The notes under the pieces: model-generated
Seen by the model: the letters and a program-made list of their open reading frames with translations, nothing else
The model's database searches: none
Told to the model about the DNA's origin: nothing
Program-made: the position numbers and the translations under genes
Sequence record: NC_010583.1
Length of the DNA stretch: 64,000 nt
Direction: 5' to 3' (one strand)
Source: Escherichia phage Eps7
Part shown: positions 1,519 to 63,881 of the stretch, in pieces
Numbering within the stretch: the stretch's first letter is position 1
Layout: each line of letters starts with the position of its first letter

Positions 1519-2007
1519 TTACATCTCAGCAAGTTCTTGCTCAGTAATTACAGTATTGCATAGAGCATCAACTTCTTCATTACCACGAATACCTGAGTGA
1601 CCTTTAACCTTAACAAAGGTTGGATTGGTATCATGGAAGTTAATATACTGTTGAGTTAGTTTAAATGCTTCTTGCCAGAGTTCTAGATTAAGAGGAGTTT
1701 CACCATCTCCCTTCTTCCAGCCTTTCTTCTGCCAAGACCACATCCAGCTTTCCATACCATTTTTGCAGTAAGCAGAATCAGTGTAGATAATTACTGGACG
1801 ATTATCTTTCTTAGTAGACCAACGAAGAACTTCTACAATTGCAGTAAGTTCCATTTCGTTATTAGTAGTTTTAGGGCTGAAGCCAGATTTAGAGCCAATA
1901 CGATCATCATTATCATTATAGACAACGAATCCCCACGCACCTAAACCAGGATTGCCTTTACATGCACCATCTGTATATATGTGGAAAACCGACATTATTT
2001 GCTCCAA
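1519..2007 (-). CDS. rnh: ribonuclease H (RNase HI family)
   Basis: N-terminal YTDGACKGNPG motif, TNNEMEL, and C-terminal KGHSG..GNE..D motif; 162 aa. Confidence 0.9.
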   Translation of the reverse strand: MEQIMSVFHIYTDGACKGNPGLGAWGFVVYNDNDDRIGSKSGFSPKTTNNEMELTAIVEVLRWSTKKDNRPVIIYTDSAYCKNGMESWMWSWQKKGWKKGDGETPLNLELWQEAFKLTQQYINFHDTNPTFVKVKGHSGIRGNEEVDALCNTVITEQELAEM

Positions 2008-2264
2008 TCAATTTCAAGCCAAAAACCTTCACGCTGTTCATACTTAGCTTCTACAACATAACCTAGTTTGCTAAGTTTTTGCATGACGCTATTTCTAGCG
2101 TTTTCTGAGTATTCAGTTAATCCCTGGATGTGACAGTTAAATTCTTTATCTTTAATAGCTTTGTCAATCTCTACGGCAATAAGTGATTCTAGGTCAATTA
2201 CTTCCTTTTTAATGCTAGCAATAGTATTTTGTTTTGCTTCTAAAGCAGATAAAAGAATAGACAT
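1995..2264 (-). CDS. hypothetical protein (89 aa)
   Basis: ORF overlapping the rnh start by 13 nt (translational coupling). Confidence 0.45.
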   Translation of the reverse strand: MSILLSALEAKQNTIASIKKEVIDLESLIAVEIDKAIKDKEFNCHIQGLTEYSENARNSVMQKLSKLGYVVEAKYEQREGFWLEIDWSK

Positions 2265-2266
2265 AT

Positions 2267-2845
2267 TTATTCTCCAATTACTAAAACATCATGTTGGGAA
2301 GATACACCACACATATAATCTGCACAATGCGTAAAAGCCAGATCAATGATTTCAAATATATCATCTACATCTAAATCTGTGGCTCGACAATCCGCAATAG
2401 CTAAACCTGTACGAATACTGGAAAGTACATCTTCTCCTCCACAGCCTACACCGGCATATTCAACTTCTAGAATAGAAGCATTAGATTGGAAAATAAAGAT
2501 TCTTCCTTTGTAGAGCATAATAAATTGTCCCAGATTAGGTTCAGCATATTTTTCATTTTTCTTTTCGCCAAAATCTTTCTGGTTAAACATATCACGTAAT
2601 TTAGGTACTATTTCCGTATATAAATATTTATCATCGGAAATATCTGCTAAACGTGGTGGTACAGTAAAGCTATGCTCTAGTAATTGTCCCATGTAGAAGG
2701 AACTAGTGTATCCGAAGTACAAATCATCAGAGATTTTGAATACTTTCGGATTTTTAACCAGCAGTTTCGTATAGCCATTAGAACCCATACGATCACCAGC
2801 TAAGTATACTTTATCTTTATATTTAAATGCTACTATGGCTGTCAT
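2267..2845 (-). CDS. HslV/proteasome beta-like Ntn-hydrolase peptidase
   Basis: MTAIVAF..VYLAGDRMGS N-terminus (Thr2 nucleophile, AGD) and GVGCGGED matching the HslV GSGG region; 192 aa. Confidence 0.7.
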   Translation of the reverse strand: MTAIVAFKYKDKVYLAGDRMGSNGYTKLLVKNPKVFKISDDLYFGYTSSFYMGQLLEHSFTVPPRLADISDDKYLYTEIVPKLRDMFNQKDFGEKKNEKYAEPNLGQFIMLYKGRIFIFQSNASILEVEYAGVGCGGEDVLSSIRTGLAIADCRATDLDVDDIFEIIDLAFTHCADYMCGVSSQHDVLVIGE

Positions 2846-2875
2846 TATTAAATCCTTCTGTCAAATTAGAAGTAT

Positions 2876-2904
2876 ATTATATTTGAATTTCACTCAGTAA
2901 GCAA
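2876..2904 (-). promoter_or_regulatory. sigma70-type promoter TTGCTT-17-TATAAT
   Basis: minus strand reads CATTTGCTTACTGAGTGAAATTCAAATATAAT, upstream of an AAGGAT RBS. Confidence 0.55.
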
Positions 2905-2920
2905 ATGAAATTTAAATATA

Positions 2921-2938
2921 ATAGCCCCGAAGGGCTAT
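2921..2938 (-). terminator. hairpin with UUCG tetraloop, followed by a T-rich tract
   Basis: ATAGCCCCGAAGGGCTAT; minus-strand RNA forms C(UUCG)G stem-loop then UUAUAUUU. Confidence 0.5.
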
Positions 2939-2943
2939 TTGAA

Positions 2944-3297
2944 TTAGATTATAATCAAGATTATTAGGGCGTATGTCAGATAATGCAGTAACTGATCAAA
3001 TCCTAAAGCTATCCAAAACTTAGCATCGCTTATAGCATATTTACAGCGTTGTGCTTTCCAATAATCTATAATAAAGTGTAGAATTAATTCCATAATAGCT
3101 AAAGCTATAGACATTCCTGGTGATGTGAATAGGATTAGAATTGCAAATGTTAATCCAGCATGTACTAGCGAATGGGTTAATAATGGAAGTTTCCACCCTA
3201 TTTTATGCGTCTTTCTTAGCATATATGGTGTTTGGAGTGGATAATCGGCCATAAAATGTTTTAGAAAGAATATGACAAATAATAGTATAATTAACAT
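2944..3297 (-). CDS. hypothetical multi-pass membrane protein (His-rich)
   Basis: 117-aa ORF with three or four hydrophobic segments. Confidence 0.5.
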   Translation of the reverse strand: MLIILLFVIFFLKHFMADYPLQTPYMLRKTHKIGWKLPLLTHSLVHAGLTFAILILFTSPGMSIALAIMELILHFIIDYWKAQRCKYAISDAKFWIALGFDQLLHYLTYALIILIII

Positions 3298-3300
3298 ATG

Positions 3301-4155
3301 TTACACCGTAAATGGATATGCAATAGCAGGATGGTGTTCATAGCCACGAACAGTAAAATCATCCTTACTTACCCACGTTAATACATCATCCAAAGTTCTA
3401 ATATTTGGATTGATTTCTAAAGTAGGAGGTGCAAAAGGTTCACGATCGAATTGCTTGTGCTCCATCAGAACATTATACTGATCTTCATAGATATGAAGAT
3501 TAATAATCTTTTGACGAGCAATACCTGGCTTAAGACCTGTAATCTGTGCCATAATAGCTAGAAGTGCATAGCATTGCACCATATTAAATACTTGGCCCAG
3601 CAAGAAATCATTAGACCTCTGGAAAGAGTTTAGGTATAGTGTATCACCTAAAATAGAGAATTGATGGGTATGCATACACGGACGTAGGCATCCTTTACGA
3701 AATTCCCCACGGGTTCCAAAAGTTAAAATTTCTCCACGATCGTCAATCCCTCTTTTCAAATTATGATAGACTTTGGCTAACTGATCAAATACCATACCAT
3801 CAGAATTAGTCCAATGACGTCCTTGAACACCATAGACTCGTCCCATATCATCCTCGCCTTTACGGAATGGATTACCTAGCCAGGCAATATTTTCATTTGC
3901 ATTAGCATTCCATGTATTAACACCAATAGCGCGGAATTGTGCTGCTGAGTCGTACCCACGGAGATATCCGATCATTTCCATTATTGCTTGTTTAGCAAAT
4001 GCTTTACGAGTAGTTACTAGCGGCAGTTCTCCTGCTCCTACGTTAAAGGTAAAGTCTGCATCAATAATGGTTAGGCAACGAACCCCTGTTCTAGGATTCG
4101 TTACCCATACACCCTCTTCAAGAATACGTTTTCCAGTTTCAATATATTGCTTCAT
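3301..4155 (-). CDS. thyA: thymidylate synthase
   Basis: active-site region [10 protein letters not shown] (Cys nucleophile) and overall ThyA-like layout; 284 aa. Confidence 0.95.
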
Positions 4156-4680
4156 TTAAATATCACCAATTCTTGTAAGAATGAAAGCGTTTTATCTGCA
4201 TTCTGTCCTGCCACATAGTCCATTCTAGTTGCCATTGAATTATAAGTAATATGATGATGCAGATGTACATCAGCAGATAATGGTGTGGCTGAAGTAATAG
4301 TAGAGATATACGCCATATCTAGATGATTTTTTGACATACATTTCAAGAAGCAGAGTTGCTCCCCCTAATACTACAGTTACCTCTTCCTTGAGAAAATCAG
4401 GCAGACGGTATCCAATGTTGCTTATGCGTGTAGCTGATCTTATAGAGTTCGGTAGTGGTCTATTTGCATAAATAAATAGGTCAGAATCTCCTAGTATTCT
4501 TTTTTGCAGAGTCTCAGGGAATGCTAACCAAGTTCCTGCTCCTACAATAATATTGTCAGGTGCCAGAGAATCCAATGTAGCATAGAAGATATCTAGTTCT
4601 TCTTTGAAAGAACCCCAGGGGAGCTTACCATTGAGGCCGAACTCCCCATTCGGCCCAGTTGCATAGATTGCTGCTATCAT
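4152..4680 (-). CDS. frd: dihydrofolate reductase, interrupted by a frameshift in a homopolymer
   Basis: N-terminal [22 protein letters not shown] and GGATLL motifs; frame is lost at T6 (4327-4332) and a DHFR-like C-terminus resumes in the overlapping 64-aa ORF; total ~166 aa. Confidence 0.8.
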
Positions 4681-5891: not shown

Positions 5892-6374
5892 TTATAAACT
5901 ATCAAGCTCCAATAGTTTAGCATCGCGCCATTCTATAGCATCCTCTAATTCTTTAAATGTTTTAGTATGTTTTACACCTTTCCTAGCTATTTGGACTTGA
6001 TAAGATCCACTTGCTTTTTGGTGTATATTTTTAATACCTAACTTATTGTCCTTATGTGCTCCAACGTTCTTTCCATTACTAAATCTGTTAGAGGCTAGTA
6101 AATTAATTGCTCTATTATCATGACGTATTCTATTATCATGATCTACTTCTTTTGGGATGTACCCATGCGTAATATAGAATGCTAGGATATGTGCGTAGTA
6201 TTTTGTACCTCTTACCTGCATTACTATGTATCCTGAGCATTTTTCCAAAGAGCCTGCCTCTTTGCCTGCAAACTTAGTATTAAATGATTTATCTTCTCTA
6301 GGTTTGTGGGTAAAGATTCCGGTTTCTGGATTATAGTCAAATAACTCAGCTATTTCTTTGTATTTTTCTTCCAT
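5892..6374 (-). CDS. HNH homing endonuclease with AP2-type DNA-binding domain
   Basis: HILAFYITHGYIP..VDHDNRIRHDNRAINL (HNH) plus GVKHTKTFKELEDAIEWRD (AP2-like); sits between nrdA and nrdB. Confidence 0.8.
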   Translation of the reverse strand: MEEKYKEIAELFDYNPETGIFTHKPREDKSFNTKFAGKEAGSLEKCSGYIVMQVRGTKYYAHILAFYITHGYIPKEVDHDNRIRHDNRAINLLASNRFSNGKNVGAHKDNKLGIKNIHQKASGSYQVQIARKGVKHTKTFKELEDAIEWRDAKLLELDSL

Positions 6375-9129: not shown

Positions 9130-9429
9130 TTACACCTTCCCCATATCCTTAAAGATATCGTAGAATGCTTTAGACTCCGGTGAGCGAACGTTGTCGATCA
9201 GTTCGATCATAGAGAAAGGAGAGTTTTCGTACTTCTCATAGACTTCCATAAGAAGTGCTAGACCTGAATCACCCTTGATGTCTTTCTGAGCTATATCCCC
9301 ACAGATAATTAAACGACAATCTTGTCCTACACGAGTCAGGAGACAGATCATTGCTTCAACGGAGATATTCTGAGCTTCATCGACAATTACATAGGAGTTG
9401 TTGAATGTTGCCACGCTTTCTTGAACCAT
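9130..9429 (-). CDS. PhoH-like ATPase, C-terminal half only (Walker B onward)
   Basis: VIVDEAQN, LTRVG, GDIAQKD, SGL and VRS motifs; no Walker A upstream; an out-of-frame ATG with AGGAG RBS lies at about 9463. Confidence 0.65.
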   Translation of the reverse strand: MVQESVATFNNSYVIVDEAQNISVEAMICLLTRVGQDCRLIICGDIAQKDIKGDSGLALLMEVYEKYENSPFSMIELIDNVRSPESKAFYDIFKDMGKV

Positions 9430-14082: not shown

Positions 14083-14511
14083 ATGTTCGATAATCTTTTC
14101 ATGAAAGAGGTAAACCCTATGCTCCTCAACTTCTGGCGATCTCTCCCTGATGGTATGTATAATGAAACCATCAATCTGCTCAAGATTTGGTGTGAGAATA
14201 ACGATATCTTCTTATCCTTTAAAGGCCCACTAGAGGAAGCTCCGTGTATTGGAGTTAGCGTGGATTTAGGGGAGGGAGTAGAAGAGATTGTAGACTGGAA
14301 AGAACTAGATGAAATGGGTCTGGTTTTTGCCTTGAACCATAAGCTGTTTATGCCTGCAAATCACCGTCTTATTGTAAACTATCGCACTGGTGAAGCTCCT
14401 GCTTTCCAGGTAAATGAACGGGAGGGCTGGTCATATTCGCCCGAAGAAGTAAATGAGGGGATTCAGAAACTTCGTCGTTTCGGGTATATGATCCCAGGTT
14501 TAACTGCTTAA
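14083..14511 (+). CDS. hypothetical protein, tandem paralogue A
   Basis: shares W-EL-EMGL-ALN ... TGE-P ... R-GY-PGL pattern with the next ORF. Confidence 0.55.
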   Translation: MFDNLFMKEVNPMLLNFWRSLPDGMYNETINLLKIWCENNDIFLSFKGPLEEAPCIGVSVDLGEGVEEIVDWKELDEMGLVFALNHKLFMPANHRLIVNYRTGEAPAFQVNEREGWSYSPEEVNEGIQKLRRFGYMIPGLTA

Positions 14512-14520
14512 GGAGGCAGA

Positions 14521-14916
14521 ATGGAACAAGTATTTTGGCGTCAGATAGATCCTAGTTTGGTAGAGCGTGCTGAGGGGCTCCTTGCACGTTGGTTGGGGGT
14601 TGACAAGGTTAGTGTAACATTTCCGTTTACTTCTGTAACAGACCCTAGTGTAGGTGTCTTTGTGGACGAAGATGAAGATGATGGTTGGGAAGCTGACTGG
14701 AATGAATTGTCCAGTATGGGCTTGATTGTTGCCCTCAACTTCTCTATATTCCACCCACGTGGTTTAGCTATTACACGTGATCCCGAAACCGGTGAATCCC
14801 CTTATCTTTTGCAAGTAGAAGATGATATTTGGGAGTACACCGAAGATATTCTCGAAGAAGCTAAAGGTCAATTAAATCGCATTGGGATCTATGTTCCAGG
14901 CCTAAATGATGATTGA
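14521..14916 (+). CDS. hypothetical protein, tandem paralogue B
   Basis: paralogue of 14083..14511; AAGGAGG RBS. Confidence 0.55.
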   Translation: MEQVFWRQIDPSLVERAEGLLARWLGVDKVSVTFPFTSVTDPSVGVFVDEDEDDGWEADWNELSSMGLIVALNFSIFHPRGLAITRDPETGESPYLLQVEDDIWEYTEDILEEAKGQLNRIGIYVPGLNDD

Positions 14917-18609: not shown

Positions 18610-19314
18610 ATGGCTGGTTCTCGTAGAAAGAAACTTATCCATGAAATCCCTGATGAAACCTTTAAAAAGGTTATTGAACATCTGGAGAATGGTGGTACTA
18701 AGAAAGCAGCCTGTGAGATGCTCGGTGTTTCTTCTAACCCAACTATGGAACGAATGATCGAGGAATGGAGAGATCGTCAGGTTCAAGTTGCGGAAATGAA
18801 AAAGAAGAAGCGCGGAACACTAATTGAAGGTGTTGAGCTTGCAAACGTAATTGAACAGTATCTTTCTGGTGATTCTTTTGAAGAAATCGCAGATCGTAAC
18901 TATCGTTCTGTAGCGATGATTAAATCTGTTCTGGAACGTTATGGTGCTCTGCTTCGTTTAAACGATATTGTTGATCCATTGAATCCTCCATTGATTCCTG
19001 ATGATGCAATGGCAGAAGAATTTGAAGTTGGCGAACTTGTTTGGGTTCCCGGCTACCAGTGTATTGGTGAAATCAAGAAAGCAATGACTAACCCAGTTGG
19101 CTGCTACCGTGTTTGGTTGTTATCAGAAGGTAAACAACAGAACGTTCACTATATGCACTACGAATTAGCTTCTGTTAAACATCTGGAAAAGCTGGGAGTT
19201 GATGTTAAAGCTCTGGGCTTTAAATGGAGCCGTGAAGAAGTTATCACGTTGGTTAATGAAGCTGTTAAAGCCGCCCTGAAACTCGATAAAGAGAAAGGAA
19301 AACGTCGTGAGTAA
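18610..19314 (+). CDS. putative HTH DNA-binding protein
   Basis: N-terminal HTH-like GGTKKAACEMLGVS; 234 aa, directly downstream of the PN25-like promoter. Confidence 0.55.
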   Translation: MAGSRRKKLIHEIPDETFKKVIEHLENGGTKKAACEMLGVSSNPTMERMIEEWRDRQVQVAEMKKKKRGTLIEGVELANVIEQYLSGDSFEEIADRNYRSVAMIKSVLERYGALLRLNDIVDPLNPPLIPDDAMAEEFEVGELVWVPGYQCIGEIKKAMTNPVGCYRVWLLSEGKQQNVHYMHYELASVKHLEKLGVDVKALGFKWSREEVITLVNEAVKAALKLDKEKGKRRE

Positions 19315-19540
19315 ACTAACTGATCTGTTAAAAGCTGGAGACGTGAAATATCTCCAGCGAGATAGCTGGAAGAACACCCGAGACTTTACATTCTTGTTAA
19401 AATTTGATGTAGATAGTGACACTGTTAAGCTATATGAGTGGCCTAGTATACACTGCGTACGCCCGATAGTAACAGTAGTTAATCTTAGTCTAGAAGAAGC
19501 TCTGGCCGACGATTGGGAGATCGTTGAACTAGATGTGTAG
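19307..19540 (+). CDS. hypothetical protein (77 aa)
   Basis: overlaps the preceding stop. Confidence 0.4.
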   Translation: MSKLTDLLKAGDVKYLQRDSWKNTRDFTFLLKFDVDSDTVKLYEWPSIHCVRPIVTVVNLSLEEALADDWEIVELDV

Positions 19541-36640: not shown

Positions 36641-36718
36641 TTTAGTAAGGAGTTGTTTTACTAATTCCTTTATTTTATTAATCTTTTTTTTTTTGAAAGG
36701 GTGCAAAACGAACCTCTT

Positions 36719-36748
36719 GCATTTTGCATTTTGCATTTTGCGTTTTCA
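36719..36748. repeat. tandem heptamer (GCATTTT) x4 next to a T11 tract at the convergent early/late junction
   Basis: TTGCATTTTGCATTTTGCATTTTGCGTTTTC; T11 run at about 36684-36694. Confidence 0.6.
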
Positions 36749-58957: not shown

Positions 58958-60274
58958 TTATTTCCCACGGGAAATTGAGTAAATTCCATAACGCAGTGCG
59001 TCACAAAGGTGAGAGTTCGCATCATGACGTGGTTTTTCACGTGATAATTTCTCTTCGCCTTCCTGGAAGTCCCACTTGTAGTTCGCTAGGGCGTGGATCA
59101 ATGAGGTACATGAAGCATCTACGATGATCTTGCCTTGCTGGAACAGTGCTTGTAGACATGCCAAACCATCTAGGACAGATTTCTTAGCAGGTGCAGAAGC
59201 GATTTCATGTTCATATGCTAAGTCTTGACGGAACTGAGCAGCAGCGGAGTCTACAAATATACGATCAACATTATAACGATCTATGCAGTGTTGGATATAA
59301 GTAGCGTGTTGAGCTGTAGTCTTTTCAGCTTGCTGATATTCTTCCAGTACGTAATAAACATCAGTATCATAGTGATACTTGATAGTAAGAACTGCTGTAG
59401 GGTCACGATAACCAACGTCGATACCAAGTAGTGTTTCGAAAGCCTCATCATCTTTAAAGAAGTGGCGCATACCTTTGAGGTCTTTAACATGTTCGATAGC
59501 ATTGAAGGTGTCAAAGATCTGACCTTCGAATACAGAGAAGTCAGCCTCATATTCTTGACGGAAGTAGTTTTTACTAACAGTACGACGCGCTTCTTCGATA
59601 TCGTTCAGATCAGCACGTGGGTTATCACGATATGTACCATGAATAGATACCCAGTTAGGTAGAGTTTCGTTAAATCCTTTCTCATAGAACTCTTTAAACC
59701 AGTTACCACCACGAGGTGTGGAAATAAACAGAGCTTTAGAGTTTGGCTTATCTAGAGTAGGACGTAACTGAATATCGAAAGCTGCACCACCAACGTCGGA
59801 AATCGCTGCTTCGTCAAAAATGATGAAGTCATATGAACGACCAACCGCGGAGTCAGCCTGCGCCGCAGAAGCCAGCTTAAAGAGAGAACCATTCGCTAGT
59901 TCAATCTCTTTATCTTTTGCGTTCTCACGTTCAGTCTGTAATCCATACTTCTTAATAAGACCACGAATCTGTGACCAACCTATGTTAGCCAGTGAGTAGT
60001 TAGGTGCAACTACCAGCACCTTCACATTGGGTTCCAGAAGTTTTAGGAACCCAAGTGTATATGCGATGAATGACTTACCTACACGACGTGATACACATGC
60101 AGTCACGAAGCGGTGTCTTGGGTCTTCCAGCGCATTAATGATTGCAATCTGAGGGGCATTAGGTGTAATTCCCTCTTGAGCTAGAATGCTAGAGACTGGC
60201 AGACGGAAGAATCGTTTGTCAATACCAAAGTCAATAACATCTGTGGTGTTAATATAGTCTCTAGAGACTTTCAT
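58958..60274 (-). CDS. terminase large subunit
   Basis: Walker A-like RRVGKSF, Walker B FIIFDEAA, C-terminal nuclease domain; 438 aa. Confidence 0.9.
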   Translation of the reverse strand: MKVSRDYINTTDVIDFGIDKRFFRLPVSSILAQEGITPNAPQIAIINALEDPRHRFVTACVSRRVGKSFIAYTLGFLKLLEPNVKVLVVAPNYSLANIGWSQIRGLIKKYGLQTERENAKDKEIELANGSLFKLASAAQADSAVGRSYDFIIFDEAAISDVGGAAFDIQLRPTLDKPNSKALFISTPRGGNWFKEFYEKGFNETLPNWVSIHGTYRDNPRADLNDIEEARRTVSKNYFRQEYEADFSVFEGQIFDTFNAIEHVKDLKGMRHFFKDDEAFETLLGIDVGYRDPTAVLTIKYHYDTDVYYVLEEYQQAEKTTAQHATYIQHCIDRYNVDRIFVDSAAAQFRQDLAYEHEIASAPAKKSVLDGLACLQALFQQGKIIVDASCTSLIHALANYKWDFQEGEEKLSREKPRHDANSHLCDALRYGIYSISRGK

Positions 60275-60756
60275 TATCTCTTACCTCCTCCTGCTAGAGC
60301 GGTAATAAGATTCATATAGTTTTCGTCACCACTTCCAGCAATAATATTATTCTGAATATTAGTCTGGTTAGCCGGAGTACGGGCTGCTGCCTTCACTTTC
60401 TCCAGTTCTACCATCATTTTCATTTCTTCCATCTTCATCTTGTGCGCCTTCCAGAGAATATCCATGATATCCTGGTCAGAACCCATGCCAGTTTCTTCGA
60501 GTTCTTCCAACTTGCGCTTGATAACTTCATCAAGAACTCCGAATAAGCGGTCACGATTACGGAAGCCGCTTTCCATAAAGATATCGTTAAGATAGTTTTT
60601 AACTTCCCCACGATTCATTATATCACGGAATGCAATCTCGGACATCCCAAGACTACGAGCAGCGGCAGGAACATCACTACCGCACTGTAAATAGGCTTCA
60701 ATAACATCCATGCCTTCGGGAGACATGAGATCGGGAACTAATACATCATTTGCCAT
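60274..60756 (-). CDS. terminase small subunit candidate (HTH)
   Basis: 160 aa immediately upstream of TerL; HTH-like [14 protein letters not shown]. Confidence 0.55.
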
Positions 60757-60860
60757 ATATCCTCCTTTAGGTTAGGCGTTGAACTGTTACACGTAGTCTT
60801 GGCAAGAAAACAGCTGCCGCTTCTGCAGCGTGAATGATAACACCCAACTCAACGTTGCCA

Positions 60861-62548
60861 TTACCAAGGTTTTTTATTATAAATATATCCATTTCTACGA
60901 AAAGCCATCTCATCAGGTCTACTAGCCCACGTTTGGGTATAGCTATATGAAGTTGTACTGTGATATGGTACTAGATAGCCAGGTGGCAGAGTAAGAATCT
61001 GATGAAATACACCATCACCAGCTGTATAACTTTGTTGACGTCTACCTTGTACCTGCCAAGCACTACCACCGTAAGTACGTACAGGCATACCAGCAGTATT
61101 AAGATTACCCATAATAACTTCAGTAGTTAATATAACAGTAGAGTGAGCATTTGGTAATCCCAACCAAACTGTAGCCAAAGGTGTGTAGAAGTCACCAGCA
61201 CCAGGGTAGGATGGAGTTATATCATCCCCAACATAAGTACTCGCAACGTTGCCTGGGAATAATCTAAGTGGTACGGTACTAGGACTCCATACAGGGCCAT
61301 GCTCATTACCTATAGAGTTGGTATTAGTATCTACATACCACTGTTTACCAACACCAAATTTATAAAGGCTAATTTGAGAAGCAGCACCCCCATAGTTAAC
61401 AGGAGACCACAAACCCCCATTACTAGAGCCGATAAATTCACATCGTGCAGTATTATCACCAAAAACTCCGGTATACGCGGTATTATTACCAACATACTCC
61501 ATATCAGGGCGATAACCTAAGTTTCCAAAAGCATTCTGGTTAATAAATTTATAGCCTGAGTTGGGTAAGCTAACACCTTTAATAGTAAAGTTAGATGGAG
61601 ATATCAGGATATCTGAACCAGTAAATGGATTACCAGAAATCCCCATACTACCATTAGAATAGCGTAGATTTAGCACATACCAAATAACTTTAGTAGGTGT
61701 AACATTATACCAGTCTTGCACATATACCTTTCTAGCTGACTGAGCAGCCATATTAGAAGTAGAACCTCTACAAACATATATTTTTTCTGGGTATGCAGGA
61801 GATTGGTAAAGAACGTTTACGTTATCTGGTAGTACTACCTTTTTTTACCGGCAAAGCCACGAATATTGGAACTACAAACGTAAAACCAATCATGACCTCT
61901 ACCAGCAGACCCGATAGGCGCTTGCCAGTTAGGCTCCCAATAGTCTGCATTACCACCATCTATAGGAACTGTAGATACACCCGTTGGAAAGCCCATTAAT
62001 CCCCAGGCTCTAGAAATAGCTTCACCAGCAGAAACACCACCAGGTCTAAAGATCTGGAAACCGGAAGATTGTAGCAAAGTACCGCCAGTTCCTTGTCTAG
62101 CAATAGATTCCTCATGACCTAGGCTACCATTATAAATATAGGTACCATGAGCTAAACTATCACCGATTGCAAAGGCAGATGTTATTGCCAATTCAGCACC
62201 AGCACGTGGTTGGTCTTCAAAGAATGTTAAAAACTGGCCAACCTGAGATTGTGTACCATTAAGGAAACCCCTATGAGTACCGTTTATCTCAATAGCAGTT
62301 AATATAACTCTACCAGGATCATTGGATTTAATGTTTATAATATCCCAAGGCATCTGAGTAACAAAATACCCATTACCTGCATCACCTAGAGCAGCCTCGT
62401 AAGTCCCATCAACTAGGACAAATGGCATATCTGAGTGGAAGATACTATTAGTATTTGGAGAGTAGTGCTGATTTATATCACCACCATTAGCAGCGTTTAG
62501 AGATAATACAGTTTTACCATCACTAAATTTTCCTGCGAAAAAACTCAT
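60861..62548 (-). CDS. receptor-binding tail protein (functional analogue of T5 pb5/Oad), frameshifted
   Basis: 237-aa and 296-aa ORFs join (~560 aa) if the T7 run (61840-61846) is read as T8; divergent from an Llp-like lipoprotein gene. Confidence 0.6.
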
Positions 62549-62573
62549 ACAATCTCCTTCTTTAAAAATGTAT

Positions 62574-62602
62574 TTGCTTAGATCCCTCTATTTTGCTATA
62601 AT
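62574..62602 (+). promoter_or_regulatory. T5-type early promoter TTGCTT-17-TATAAT with downstream ATTTATAAATTAAACAGAGGAACG box
   Basis: sequence match to the promoter family. Confidence 0.65.
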
Positions 62603-62631
62603 ATATTTATAAATTAAACAGAGGAACGATT

Positions 62632-62901
62632 ATGAAAAAGTTACTAGCCATCGTAGTTGCAGCAGCAGTAGTGTTGACGGGTTGTGTACCAGCTCCCGAG
62701 CCATTCTGTAAGGCATACGTGAAGTCTTATGGTCATGTTGGTGAAGAACACTATGCTTTAGATATTCGAGAAGCACGTACTGTGGGCTACCGATTCCCTA
62801 AAACTCAGTTACGCACTAAGTTTGGGTGGTGGGATTTGTCACAGTTTGCTCTCAAATATGGCGATTGCAAATTTAAACTAGAACAATCTGGTCACTTGTA
62901 A
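62632..62901 (+). CDS. llp: Llp-like lipoprotein (putative receptor-blocking superinfection-exclusion protein)
   Basis: signal peptide MKKLLAIVVAAAVVLTGC with LTGC lipobox; 89 aa; divergent from the receptor-binding protein gene. Confidence 0.75.
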   Translation: MKKLLAIVVAAAVVLTGCVPAPEPFCKAYVKSYGHVGEEHYALDIREARTVGYRFPKTQLRTKFGWWDLSQFALKYGDCKFKLEQSGHL

Positions 62902-62975: not shown

Positions 62976-63290
62976 ATGCAAGATGAAGAAAAGTCCTTTC
63001 AGGAACCTGTTAACTTTGAAATAGATCCCAGGACTAAAGCAATACATGATGCAATTAACGAAATCATTCAAGACGTCATAGAAGATACAATAGAAGACGT
63101 GATGAGAACATCCTTCTTACTAGAAGAGTCCGGCTTCGACGAAGTAATGGATCTAATCGGGACAGTCGTAATGGTTCGTGCAATTGCTAGGATATTCCAA
63201 ATACCGGGCTTACAGGAGAAGCAAAGAGATGTCAGACGACAACAGAAGAAAGAACAGACGCGGGGAAGTGTACGAAAGTTGGATAAATAG
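62976..63290 (+). CDS. hypothetical acidic protein (104 aa)
   Basis: ORF with weak RBS. Confidence 0.35.
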   Translation: MQDEEKSFQEPVNFEIDPRTKAIHDAINEIIQDVIEDTIEDVMRTSFLLEESGFDEVMDLIGTVVMVRAIARIFQIPGLQEKQRDVRRQQKKEQTRGSVRKLDK

Positions 63291-63363
63291 TTTCGGATTC
63301 GGAACTGTATTATTCTTTATCTTTGTACTCTTTTGGTTAGCAGCTATGGCGGGGTGGTTATAA
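63239..63363 (+). CDS. small membrane protein (41 aa)
   Basis: AGGAGA RBS; basic N-terminus plus C-terminal TM segment. Confidence 0.3.
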
Positions 63364-63467
63364 TGGAAGTAGTGATTATTGCTTTACTAGTTGTGGTAAT
63401 TATCGGACAGTGCATTCTAGATAACCACTTAGCTCGTATAGAATGTAAGCTGCGGGGAGATAAATAA
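63363..63467 (+). CDS. small membrane protein (34 aa)
   Basis: TAATG coupling; TM segment VVIIALLVVVIIG. Confidence 0.3.
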   Translation: MEVVIIALLVVVIIGQCILDNHLARIECKLRGDK

Positions 63468-63661
63468 TGGATTGGCTAGGACTTATTACACTTGTAGTAT
63501 GGCTTGTCTGGATTGTTGGATATATGACGTCACATCGTAATCGTATACAGCGGCTAGAGGATAAAGTCACCCAACTGAACATTAATATGGATAAGTTACT
63601 GGACTCCCAACGTAATGATCGGGCACGTATTCACCAACTTGAGAGGGAATTAGATGTTTAG
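63467..63661 (+). CDS. small membrane protein with N-terminal TM and coiled coil (64 aa)
   Basis: GGGGAGATAAATA-ATG RBS; LITLVVWLVWIVGY. Confidence 0.45.
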   Translation: MDWLGLITLVVWLVWIVGYMTSHRNRIQRLEDKVTQLNINMDKLLDSQRNDRARIHQLERELDV

Positions 63662-63881
63662 TTTTGTAGCTATCTTCATTATCGGGGTGCTTGCGGGAAT
63701 CTTCGGAACACTCGGGGCGATTAATAAGCATCGTGAATATATTGCGGGAGTATCGCGGGAGCTTTCGGAAAGGGAGCGGAAGTTTGCGGAGAAACGTGCG
63801 GAGTTTGAGCGAGAGTGGTCGGAGGGATCTCGGGCGTCGCGGCGGAGATTTCGGGCTGATTCCGTGAGTTCCCCTAAATAG
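63654..63881 (+). CDS. small membrane protein with N-terminal TM and charged C-terminus (75 aa)
   Basis: overlaps the preceding stop; FVAIFIIGVLAGIFGTLGA. Confidence 0.45.
   Translation: MFSFVAIFIIGVLAGIFGTLGAINKHREYIAGVSRELSERERKFAEKRAEFEREWSEGSRASRRRFRADSVSSPK

What the first reader, a model, noticed from the sequence alone, without database searches (positions are those of the whole stretch)
60861..62901. Divergent receptor-binding protein and lipoprotein module that differs from T5 pb5
A lipobox protein (LTGC) under an early T5-type promoter is transcribed divergently from a ~560-aa Gly/Ser/Asn-rich late protein next to the terminase genes. This is the arrangement of the T5 oad/llp pair (adsorption protein plus receptor-masking lipoprotein), but the large protein is shorter than pb5, suggesting a different outer-membrane receptor such as BtuB or FepA.
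Basis: partly seen in the sequence, partly recalled or inferred. Interest (0 to 1): 0.6.

Follow-up and report, generated by a model that had tools for sequence, protein, structure and literature searches.

The report
Known BtuB receptor-binding/blocking module of EPS7
This is the already described adsorption module of a T5-like phage (almost certainly phage EPS7): a tail-tip protein that binds the vitamin B12 transporter BtuB, plus a small lipoprotein that blocks that receptor, and the "frameshift" and short length are most likely sequencing errors.

Summary
The window is an Epseptimavirus, 97-98% identical in DNA to phage PSa2. Its 89-aa lipoprotein is identical to the one deposited for phage EPS7.

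The large minus-strand gene spans 60767-62548. That is 1782 nt, or 593 codons, the same length as in PSa2, Sepoy and Sds2. It is not about 560 aa.

Between the lesions, substitutions against relatives are almost all synonymous in the ancestral frame. Ten other genes in the window, including tape measure and tail terminator, carry similar frameshifts. The breaks are therefore most likely sequencing errors.

The repaired protein is 99.5% identical to the PSa2 receptor-binding protein (RBP). It is 96.8% identical to TrudiRoth, 82% to SPC35, 76% to BF23 Hrs and 63.5% to DT57C; papers read here report all four as BtuB-dependent. It is only about 29% identical to T5 pb5 (FhuA) and 28% to H8 (FepA).

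The divergent lipoprotein (62632-62901, lipobox LTGC) is 66% identical to the BF23 receptor-blocking Llp. It sits behind the conserved TTGCTT-17-TATAAT promoter.

The parts
60767..62548 (-). Receptor-binding tail-tip protein gene (hrs/oad/pb5 homologue, BtuB type). It is 1782 nt (593 codons) once repaired. As given, it is broken into three ORFs: 61835-62548 (237 aa), 60861-61751 (296 aa) and 60767-60913 (C-terminal frame).
   Evidence: Both large fragments match phrog_4815 'receptor binding tail protein' (E 3e-107 and 6e-143). The gene has the same length as in PSa2 and Sepoy. The repaired protein is 99.5% identical to PSa2, 75.8% to BF23 Hrs and 29.3% to T5 pb5.
61836..61846 (-). First frameshift site: two 1-nt insertions (61836, and a T7 run at 61840-61846 where relatives have T6). 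The net change is +2.
   Evidence: Alignments to PSa2, Sepoy and Sds2. The relatives read GGTAAAAAAGG(T/C)GTACTACC; the window reads GGTAAAAAAAGGTAGTACTACC on the coding strand.
60874..60881 (-). Second frameshift site: a 2-nt deletion inside a variable Thr-Val/Thr-Ile dicodon. It returns the reading to the original frame and creates the false stop at 60861.
   Evidence: The relatives read TATAC(A/T)(G/A)T(A/T)AAAAAC; the window reads TATAATAAAAAAC.
62574..62602 (+). Early sigma-70 promoter of llp: TTGCTT, 17 nt, TATAAT, with TGC immediately before the -10 hexamer.
   Evidence: Conserved in the alignment of window, PSa2, BF23, SPC35 and T5. The same hexamers are annotated as -35/-10 signals in BF23 record DQ097178. 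T5 annotates 'putative early promoter T5P41' at this position.
62632..62901 (+). llp: receptor-blocking (superinfection exclusion / lytic conversion) lipoprotein precursor, 89 aa. The signal peptide ends in the lipobox LTGC. The mature protein has Cys at mature positions 9 and 62.
   Evidence: phrog_1119 E 4.6e-23. It is 66% identical to BF23 Llp. G17, C18, C26 and C79 are invariant in 11 homologues. The sequence is identical to EPS7 ACB97610.1.
60274..60756 (-). Small terminase subunit gene, immediately downstream of the receptor-binding protein gene. This is the context that defines the locus.
   Evidence: 100% identical to the PSa2 small terminase subunit. [quoted passage not shown]
62976..63881 (+). 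Four small ORFs co-oriented with llp (62976-63290, 63363-63467, 63467-63661, 63654-63881). They are counterparts of BF23 Orf1-4 and T5 ORF148-151 and probably form one early transcription unit with llp.
   Evidence: Positional and sequence correspondence with PSa2, BF23 and T5 annotation. No informative Pfam match.

Best explanation
The locus is the host-recognition module of an EPS7-type T5-like phage (Epseptimavirus), almost certainly EPS7 itself.

The minus-strand late gene (60767-62548) encodes the 593-aa receptor-binding protein (RBP) carried at the tip of the central straight tail fibre. It is a distant homologue of T5 pb5 but belongs to the BF23 Hrs cluster. It binds the outer-membrane vitamin B12 transporter BtuB irreversibly and triggers DNA ejection.

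The divergent gene llp (62632-62901) is transcribed by host RNA polymerase from a strong T5-type early promoter. It encodes a lipoprotein precursor that is lipidated at Cys18 and sorted to the inner leaflet of the outer membrane (Val, not Asp, at +2). There it inactivates BtuB as a phage receptor, which prevents superinfection and stops progeny being lost on cell debris. By analogy with T5 Llp on FhuA, it probably binds the periplasmic face and plug of BtuB and closes extracellular loops allosterically.

The two frame disruptions in the RBP gene are errors in the deposited sequence, not biology.

Shown here: homology, gene order, the conserved promoter, the lipobox, clustering with BtuB-type RBPs, and the error-like nature of the frameshifts.
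Taken from papers read here: BtuB dependence of TrudiRoth, DT57C and BF23; blocking activity of the BF23 and DT57C Llp; BtuB use by EPS7 and SPC35, known to me only as those papers cite the primary reports (Hong 2008; Kim and Ryu 2011).
Inferred: the periplasmic plug-jamming mechanism for this Llp.
For: Identity of the phage:
- 98.2% nt identity to PSa2 (species Epseptimavirus EPS7) over the locus, and 97% over 25 kb.
- The 89-aa Llp is an exact match to EPS7 ACB97610.1/YP_001837090.1, on a 111,382-bp contig, in a UniRef100 cluster of one.
- Neither EPS7 accession is in the phage collection searched.

RBP family and receptor class:
- phrog_4815 matches both fragments.
- T5 pb5 structures 8b14_B and 8a8c_B match at E about 1e-46.
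- tblastn identities of the repaired protein: PSa2 99.5%, TrudiRoth 96.8%, SPC35 82.4%, BF23 Hrs 75.8%, DT57C 63.5%, T5 29.3%, H8 27.9%.
- TrudiRoth's btuB dependence was shown with complementation. RBP clusters are reported to predict the BtuB, FhuA or FepA receptor, and EPS7 is cited as BtuB-dependent (PMC8594841).
- DT57C and BF23 use BtuB, and their Llp blocks infection by them but not by T5 (PMC4728585).
- btuB mutations arise in hosts coevolved with JNwz02, whose locus is 95% identical in DNA to the window (PMC11014889).

Llp:
- 66% identity to BF23 Llp.
- T5 Llp and the window and BF23 Llp all match phrog_1119 over its full length.
- hhalign of the BtuB-type Llp alignment against T5 Llp gives probability 92.9% and aligns PFCKAY with IKCEAY.
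- C26 and C79 are invariant. This parallels the Cys11-Cys58 disulphide of T5 Llp (PMC9586334).
- The promoter is conserved.

Frameshifts as errors:
- The gene length is exactly 1782 nt, as in relatives.
- In the 318 out-of-frame codons there are 7 synonymous and 0 nonsynonymous differences from PSa2, and 33 and 1 from Sepoy.
- Eleven of the 74 PSa2 proteins, the RBP included, align to the window in two or more reading frames. They include tape measure, the pb4-like fibre, tail terminator, minor tail protein, nrdA and ligase.
Against: - No experiment could be run. BtuB binding is inferred from sequence clustering and from an identification of the phage that rests on one exact protein match plus DNA similarity.
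- I could not read the primary EPS7 paper. I know its result only as other papers cite it.
- As literally given, the sequence does not encode an intact RBP.
- Neither lesion is a simple homopolymer miscount. Site 1 has one run error plus one extra base 3 nt away. Site 2 is a dinucleotide loss. The two cancel exactly (+2 and -2), which is a coincidence under the error model.
- The AlphaFold model of Llp (pLDDT 82) found no significant match in the PDB, and the T5 Llp chain was not among the matches listed. A shared fold with T5 Llp rests on profile matches only, partly driven by the signal peptide.
Confidence: 0.9

Rival explanations
1. The large protein is a FhuA-binding pb5, as in T5 and as the GenBank record of phage Sepoy labels its 96.5%-identical locus.
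For: The Sepoy annotation reads 'FhuA receptor-binding tail protein'. The protein is homologous to pb5 over most of its length.
Against: Identity to pb5 is only 29%, against 76-99.5% to RBPs of phages reported as BtuB-dependent in the papers read here. Identity to T5 falls to 13-34% across residues 101-300. The partner lipoprotein is of the BF23 type (66%) and shows no significant pairwise similarity to T5 Llp (E 0.067). The DT57C Llp of this type does not protect against T5 (PMC4728585). The Sepoy label looks like a name transferred from pb5.
Confidence: 0.02
2. The protein binds FepA, like the receptor-binding protein of phage H8, or another TonB-dependent transporter.
For: A FepA cluster exists among T5-like receptor-binding proteins (PMC8594841).
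Against: Identity to H8 is 27.9%. The protein sits firmly inside the BtuB cluster, and near-identical proteins (TrudiRoth 96.8%) are experimentally BtuB-dependent.
Confidence: 0.02
3. The frameshifts are real. Either this genome carries a dead receptor-binding protein gene, or the full-length protein is made by recoding: a -1 slip on the A7 run at site 1 and a +1 slip on the A6 run at site 2, by ribosomal or transcriptional slippage.
For: Both lesions lie at or next to A-runs on the coding strand. By reading the sequence, a -1 slip at GGT AAA AAA A and a +1 slip at AAT AAA AAA C would restore the conserved frames. The indels cancel exactly.
Against: The same A6 runs occur in PSa2, Sepoy and Sds2 with an uninterrupted frame. 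All sampled relatives give a single-piece, full-length tblastn match. Ten other genes in the window, several essential for the virion, are broken in the same way, which no viable plaque-forming phage could tolerate. An exact search for the window's version of site 1 found no match in viral contigs. The middle segment shows strong purifying selection in the ancestral frame.
Confidence: 0.04

Closest known systems
Phage EPS7 receptor-binding module (Hong et al. 2008, FEMS Microbiol Lett 289:202; GenBank CP000917 / NC_010583)
   Same: Probably the very same sequence. The Llp protein is identical, the contig length is 111,382 bp, and the closest genomes belong to the species Epseptimavirus EPS7. 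EPS7 is cited as BtuB-dependent (PMC8594841, PMC8624392, PMC9424859).
   Different: Nothing detected. I could not read the paper or fetch the record, so I could not check how the broken receptor-binding protein gene is annotated there.
Phage BF23 hrs/llp module (Mondigler, Ayoub & Heller 2006; DQ097178)
   Same: It has the same divergent architecture, the same TTGCTT-17-TATAAT llp promoter, and the same four small ORFs downstream. Hrs is 75.8% identical and Llp 66% identical. The receptor is BtuB, and Llp blocks it (PMC4728585).
   Different: The receptor-binding protein is 593 aa here against 595 aa. Divergence is greatest at residues 151-250 (58-68% identity). The window's Llp has one extra Ala in its signal peptide. 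The genomic backbone is Epseptimavirus rather than Tequintavirus.
Phage T5 oad (pb5) / llp module; structures of FhuA-pb5 (8a8c, 8b14) and the FhuA-Llp crystal structure (PMC9586334)
   Same: It has the same position upstream of the terminase genes, the same divergent early lipoprotein gene and promoter, and a homologous receptor-binding protein fold family (E 1e-46). The lipoproteins fall in the same PHROG (1119) and share the same Cys pattern.
   Different: The receptor is FhuA, not BtuB. The receptor-binding proteins are 29% identical (640 aa against 593 aa). The Llp proteins (77 aa against 89 aa) show no significant pairwise similarity. The periplasmic plug-jamming mechanism has been shown only for T5 Llp on FhuA.
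Cor superinfection-exclusion lipoproteins of T1, phi80 and N15-type phages
   Same: They are small outer-membrane lipoproteins that inactivate a TonB-dependent transporter used as a phage receptor. RefSeq names the window's protein 'Cor superinfection exclusion protein', and it falls in phrog_1119 of that name.
   Different: Cor proteins target FhuA and are encoded in other genomic contexts. The relationship is remote: about 20% identity is reported even between Cor and T5 Llp (PMC9586334).

Membership tests
Markadamsvirinae receptor-binding tail-tip protein (pb5/Oad/Hrs family, PHROG 4815) | Sequence homology to pb5/Hrs along the protein | tested here: met
   The two fragments match phrog_4815 at E 3.4e-107 and 6.1e-143, covering profile positions 1-253 and 304-611 of 650. 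PDB pb5 chains match at E 1.4e-46.
Markadamsvirinae receptor-binding tail-tip protein (pb5/Oad/Hrs family, PHROG 4815) | Gene lies directly upstream of, and co-oriented with, the small and large terminase subunit genes | tested here: met
   The receptor-binding protein gene stops at 60767. The small terminase subunit gene occupies 60274-60756 and the large subunit gene 58958-60274, all on the minus strand. The rule is stated in PMC8594841.
Markadamsvirinae receptor-binding tail-tip protein (pb5/Oad/Hrs family, PHROG 4815) | One uninterrupted ORF of about 585-640 codons | tested here: not met
   In the window as given, a +2 change at 61836/61840 and a -2 change at 60877-60878 split the gene into three ORFs. 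I judge these to be sequencing errors: substitutions are synonymous only in the ancestral frame, and ten other genes are broken.
BtuB-specific cluster of T5-like receptor-binding proteins (BF23 Hrs, EPS7, SPC35, DT57C, TrudiRoth) | Clusters by sequence with proteins of experimentally BtuB-dependent phages and apart from the FhuA and FepA clusters | tested here: met
   63.5-99.5% identity to BtuB-type proteins against 28-29% to T5 and H8. The predictive value of the clusters is stated in PMC8594841.
BtuB-specific cluster of T5-like receptor-binding proteins (BF23 Hrs, EPS7, SPC35, DT57C, TrudiRoth) | Infection depends on btuB, or the protein binds BtuB | not testable with these tools
   Known only from the literature on EPS7, TrudiRoth, BSP22A, SPC35, BF23 and DT57C.
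Llp/Cor receptor-blocking lipoproteins (PHROG 1119) | Signal peptide with lipobox and lipidated Cys; no Asp at +2 (outer-membrane sorting) | tested here: met
   The N-terminus reads MKKLLAIVVAAAVVLTG|C VPA. G17 and C18 are invariant in 11 homologues. The +2 rule comes from established knowledge of Lol sorting.
Llp/Cor receptor-blocking lipoproteins (PHROG 1119) | Profile-level homology, including the conserved Cys pair that forms the intramolecular disulphide in T5 Llp | tested here: met
   phrog_1119 matches at E 4.6e-23 (window), 1.8e-26 (BF23) and 1.1e-19 (T5). hhalign gives probability 92.9% and aligns the first Cys. The second Cys is aligned. C26 and C79 are invariant. The T5 Cys11-Cys58 disulphide is described in PMC9586334.
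Llp/Cor receptor-blocking lipoproteins (PHROG 1119) | Same three-dimensional fold as T5 Llp bound to FhuA | tested here: inconclusive
   The AlphaFold model (pLDDT 81.8) is a five-strand beta unit plus a C-terminal helix. The Foldseek search of the PDB found nothing at E <= 0.001, and the T5 Llp chain was not among the matches listed. The authors of the T5 structure report that AF2 also mispredicted T5 Llp.
Llp/Cor receptor-blocking lipoproteins (PHROG 1119) | Divergent from the receptor-binding protein gene and behind an early promoter | tested here: met
   The 83-bp intergenic region carries the conserved TTGCTT-17-TATAAT promoter.
Llp/Cor receptor-blocking lipoproteins (PHROG 1119) | Expression makes cells resistant to the cognate phage by inactivating its receptor | not testable with these tools
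   Shown for the BF23 and DT57C Llp, which are about 66% identical to this one (PMC4728585). Not tested for the EPS7 protein in anything I could read.

The most novel reading that the evidence does not exclude
The two lesions are genuine, and the phage still makes a full-length receptor-binding protein by slippage on the adjacent A7 and A6 runs: -1 at 61840-61846, then +1 near 60868-60873. This would be a doubly recoded, perhaps expression-throttled, adsorption protein.

A milder and more likely untested point: the BtuB-type Llp may jam the BtuB plug from the periplasm by the same reverse allostery shown for T5 Llp on FhuA. No structure of that complex turned up in the PDB sequence search.
Probability: 0.03. 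Interest if true: 0.6.

Novelty: already known. Interest (0 to 1): 0.08.

Why it matters
It matters little as a discovery. The hrs/llp BtuB module of BF23, EPS7 and SPC35-type phages has been known since 2006-2008, and hundreds of sequenced Epseptimavirus and Tequintavirus genomes carry it (244 records; 532 records).

The practical value lies in annotation:
1. The public sequence behind this window carries many frameshift errors, so its gene calls, including the receptor-binding protein, should not be read as biology.
2. Some relatives carry misleading labels, such as 'FhuA receptor-binding tail protein' in Sepoy and 'superinfection exclusion protein' placed on the receptor-binding protein gene in 8sent1748 and phiLLS.
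3. The BtuB-type and T5-type Llp, described in the literature as lacking homology, fall in one profile family with a conserved Cys pair. This makes the T5 plug-jamming model a reasonable hypothesis for BtuB.

Tried and rejected
- Pfam scan of both receptor-binding protein fragments, the intact PSa2 protein and Llp: no family matched.
- The generic sigma-70 scan did not list the llp promoter, because its -35 hexamer TTGCTT scores only 3 of 6. I established the promoter by alignment to the annotated BF23 and T5 promoters instead.
- Fetching EPS7 by accession (NC_010583, CP000917): not in the collection.
- Reading Hong et al. 2008 (PMC9021807): not held.
- Exact search of viral contigs for the window's frameshifted 33-mer: no match.
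- Exact look-up of the 237-aa and 296-aa fragments as deposited proteins: not in the collection.
- Look-up of contigs encoding the EPS7 Llp: none on record.
- PDB sequence search with Llp: nothing, even at E 10.
- AlphaFold plus Foldseek for Llp: no significant structural neighbour.
- A check of the window against the published figure of 97.85% between the Sds2 and EPS7 receptor-binding protein genes gave 92.9% nt but 97.3% aa identity. It is uninformative about the window's identity; the published number may refer to protein.
- Rejected: FhuA or FepA specificity, a real pseudogene, and programmed recoding (see the rival explanations).
Full report
**What is in the sequence**

ORF listing and direct reading show an 89-aa ORF on the + strand at 62632-62901. 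It begins MKKLLAIVVAAAVVLTGC, a classical lipoprotein signal peptide with the lipobox LTGC.

An 83-bp intergenic region separates it from a divergent minus-strand gene that starts at 62548 behind an AAGGAG ribosome-binding site. That gene is not one ORF in the window. Frame 1 runs 62548-61835 (237 aa), a second frame carries 61751-60861 (296 aa), and the first frame resumes to a stop at 60767 (the ORF listed as 60767-60913). The small terminase subunit gene (60274-60756) and the large subunit gene (58958-60274) follow immediately on the same strand.

**Which genome this is**

Megablast of the locus found 244 phage records. The best is Escherichia phage PSa2 (species Epseptimavirus EPS7) at 98.2%, then Salmonella phages faergetype and Sepoy at 96.5%. 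A 25-kb stretch elsewhere in the window gives 97% identity to the same group.

The 89-aa lipoprotein is an exact match to ACB97610.1/YP_001837090.1 of Escherichia phage EPS7. That protein lies on a 111,382-bp contig and forms a UniRef100 cluster of one. Neither EPS7 accession is present in the phage collection. The window is therefore almost certainly part of the EPS7 genome.

**The frameshifts**

In PSa2, Sepoy and Sds2 the homologous gene is one ORF of 1782 nt, or 593 codons. The window's stretch 60767-62548 is also exactly 1782 nt, but it differs by two lesions:
- Two 1-nt insertions at 61836 and 61840. On the coding strand the window reads GGTAAAAAAAGGTAGTAC, where the relatives read GGTAAAAAAGG(T/C)GTAC.
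- A 2-nt deletion at 60877-60878, inside a variable Thr-Val/Thr-Ile dicodon.

Its end coordinate of 60861 and its estimate of about 560 aa are therefore artefacts.

Three results point to sequence errors rather than biology:
1. In the 318 codons between the lesions, read in the ancestral frame, the window differs from PSa2 by 7 synonymous and 0 nonsynonymous changes. It differs from Sepoy by 33 synonymous and 1 nonsynonymous change. This is strong purifying selection on a frame that the window's own ATG cannot reach.
2. A tblastn of all 74 PSa2 proteins against the window shows 11 genes, this one included, split between reading frames. The other ten are dhfr, nrdA (three shifts), ligase subunit B, the 983-aa tail protein, the pb4-like fibre, tape measure, minor tail protein, tail tube terminator, the nicking endonuclease and phoH; phoH also carries an internal deletion of about 407 nt. 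Many of the underlying indels are one-base changes in homopolymer runs. No plaque-forming phage could carry all of these.
3. Every sampled relative gives a single-piece, full-length match to the repaired protein. The window's version of site 1 has no exact match in viral contigs.

One caution remains. The lesions in this gene are not pure homopolymer miscounts, and they cancel exactly. Both also sit beside A-runs where a -1 slip and then a +1 slip would restore the frame. I keep that recoding reading as a rival at about 4%.

**What the large protein is**

Both fragments match PHROG 4815, 'receptor binding tail protein' (E 3e-107 and 6e-143). Pfam has no model for it. The only solved relatives are T5 pb5 in complex with FhuA (8b14_B, 8a8c_B; E about 1e-46), aligned over residues 1-188 and 274-593.

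The repaired 593-aa protein has these identities:

| Phage protein | Identity | Receptor |
|---|---|---|
| PSa2 | 99.5% | not stated in sources read |
| TrudiRoth (Bas30) | 96.8% | BtuB |
| SPC35 | 82.4% | BtuB |
| BF23 Hrs | 75.8% | BtuB |
| DT57C | 63.5% | BtuB |
| T5 pb5 | 29.3% | FhuA |
| H8 | 27.9% | FepA |

The window-by-window profile shows that similarity to T5 is highest in the first 50 residues (53%) and falls to 13-34% across residues 101-300. BF23 is most divergent at residues 151-250.

[quoted passage not shown] It reports that they form three clusters that predict the BtuB, FhuA or FepA receptor. It also shows btuB dependence of TrudiRoth with complementation and cites EPS7 as BtuB-dependent (PMC8594841). 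Further support comes from work on DT57C and BF23 (PMC4728585), phiR2-01 (PMC8624392), JNwz02 (PMC11014889) and Sds2 with BSP22A (PMC9424859).

The receptor is therefore BtuB, with high confidence. The Sepoy GenBank label 'FhuA receptor-binding tail protein' is best read as a name transferred from pb5.

**What the lipoprotein is**

It is 66% identical to the BF23 Llp, annotated 'receptor-blocking protein', and 97-99% identical to the PSa2 protein. It differs from PSa2 by one extra Ala, from a GCA repeat expansion at 62659.

Pairwise it has no significant similarity to T5 Llp (E 0.067), which matches the literature statement of 'no homology'. Nevertheless:
- The T5, BF23 and window proteins all match the full length of PHROG 1119, 'Cor superinfection exclusion protein'.
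- A profile of 11 BtuB-type Llp sequences aligns to T5 Llp with 92.9% probability and pairs PFCKAY with IKCEAY.
- The two non-lipid cysteines (C26, C79) are invariant. They correspond to the Cys11-Cys58 disulphide of T5 Llp (PMC9586334).

An AlphaFold model (pLDDT 82) shows a small beta unit plus a C-terminal helix, but it has no significant PDB neighbour. Fold identity with T5 Llp is therefore unproven.

**Promoter**

TTGCTT (62574-62579), 17 nt, then TATAAT (62597-62602) is conserved in window, PSa2, BF23, SPC35 and T5. These hexamers coincide with the -35/-10 signals annotated in the BF23 record and with T5's 'putative early promoter T5P41'. From my own knowledge, TTGCTT is also the -35 hexamer of the classical T5 PN25 promoter.

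Four small co-oriented ORFs follow llp (62976-63881). They correspond to BF23 Orf1-4 and T5 ORF148-151.

**How it most likely works**

Late in infection the 593-aa protein is assembled at the tip of the central tail fibre. On a new host it binds BtuB irreversibly and triggers DNA ejection, as pb5 does on FhuA.

Early in infection host RNA polymerase transcribes llp. The precursor is lipidated at Cys18 and, having Val rather than Asp at +2, is sorted to the outer membrane. There it inactivates BtuB as a receptor, which excludes superinfecting phage and protects progeny from adsorbing to debris. Blocking has been shown experimentally for the BF23 and DT57C Llp (PMC4728585).

The molecular route is inferred from the T5 FhuA-Llp crystal structure (PMC9586334): binding to the periplasmic face and a non-native plug conformation, with inward folding of extracellular loops. 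It has not been shown for BtuB.

**Verdict**

- Novelty is nil. This is the published receptor-binding module of EPS7 and BF23-type phages, present in hundreds of genomes.
- The frameshifts reflect the quality of the sequence, not biology.

Noticed in passing
window 4327-4364, 7195, 8422, 8467, 22290, 37423, 42087, 47017, 51203, 53042, 58769: Single-base indels relative to PSa2 split ten further genes between reading frames: dhfr, nrdA (three shifts), ligase subunit B, the 983-aa tail protein, the pb4-like fibre, tape measure, minor tail protein, tail tube terminator, the nicking endonuclease and phoH (listed separately with its deletion). Many sit in A, T, C or G runs. This indicates a low-quality deposited sequence, so gene calls across the whole window are unreliable.
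   Followed up: yes
window 5892-6374 (- strand): A 160-aa ORF with an HNH_3 endonuclease domain (Pfam E 4.7e-09) lies in a roughly 530-bp insertion between nrdB and nrdA that PSa2 lacks. It is probably a homing endonuclease. One paper says EPS7 has a single homing endonuclease.
   Followed up: partly
window about 9406-9415: Relative to PSa2, about 407 nt of the phoH-like gene (roughly residues 20-158 of 250) are missing. The junction has a 10-nt overlap between the flanking alignments. This could be a real deletion or an assembly error; I could not tell which.
   Followed up: partly
window 62659-62661: A 3-nt GCA expansion in a GCAGCAGCA repeat adds one Ala to the hydrophobic core of the Llp signal peptide (89 aa against 88 aa in most relatives). 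It is in frame and presumably neutral.
   Followed up: yes
window 36684-36723: The intergenic region after the dut-side operon differs from PSa2 by a T-run that is 4 nt shorter and by a 7-bp tandem duplication (TTGCATT TTGCATT).
   Followed up: no
window 14083-14508 and 14521-14913 (+ strand): Two adjacent hypothetical genes are 31% identical paralogues of each other (a tandem duplication), as also seen in PSa2.
   Followed up: no
L002 (Sepoy MK728825) 1568-3349; hits H74 (8sent1748) and H77 (phiLLS): Public annotation of this locus is inconsistent. Sepoy calls the BtuB-type protein 'FhuA receptor-binding tail protein'. The features annotated under the receptor-binding protein match in 8sent1748 and phiLLS are named 'superinfection exclusion protein'. 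RefSeq names the Llp 'Cor superinfection exclusion protein'.
   Followed up: partly
window 19307-19537: A small ORF is only 54.8% identical to its PSa2 counterpart (hyp145) within an otherwise 97-100% identical replication-gene block. This looks like a local mosaic replacement.
   Followed up: no
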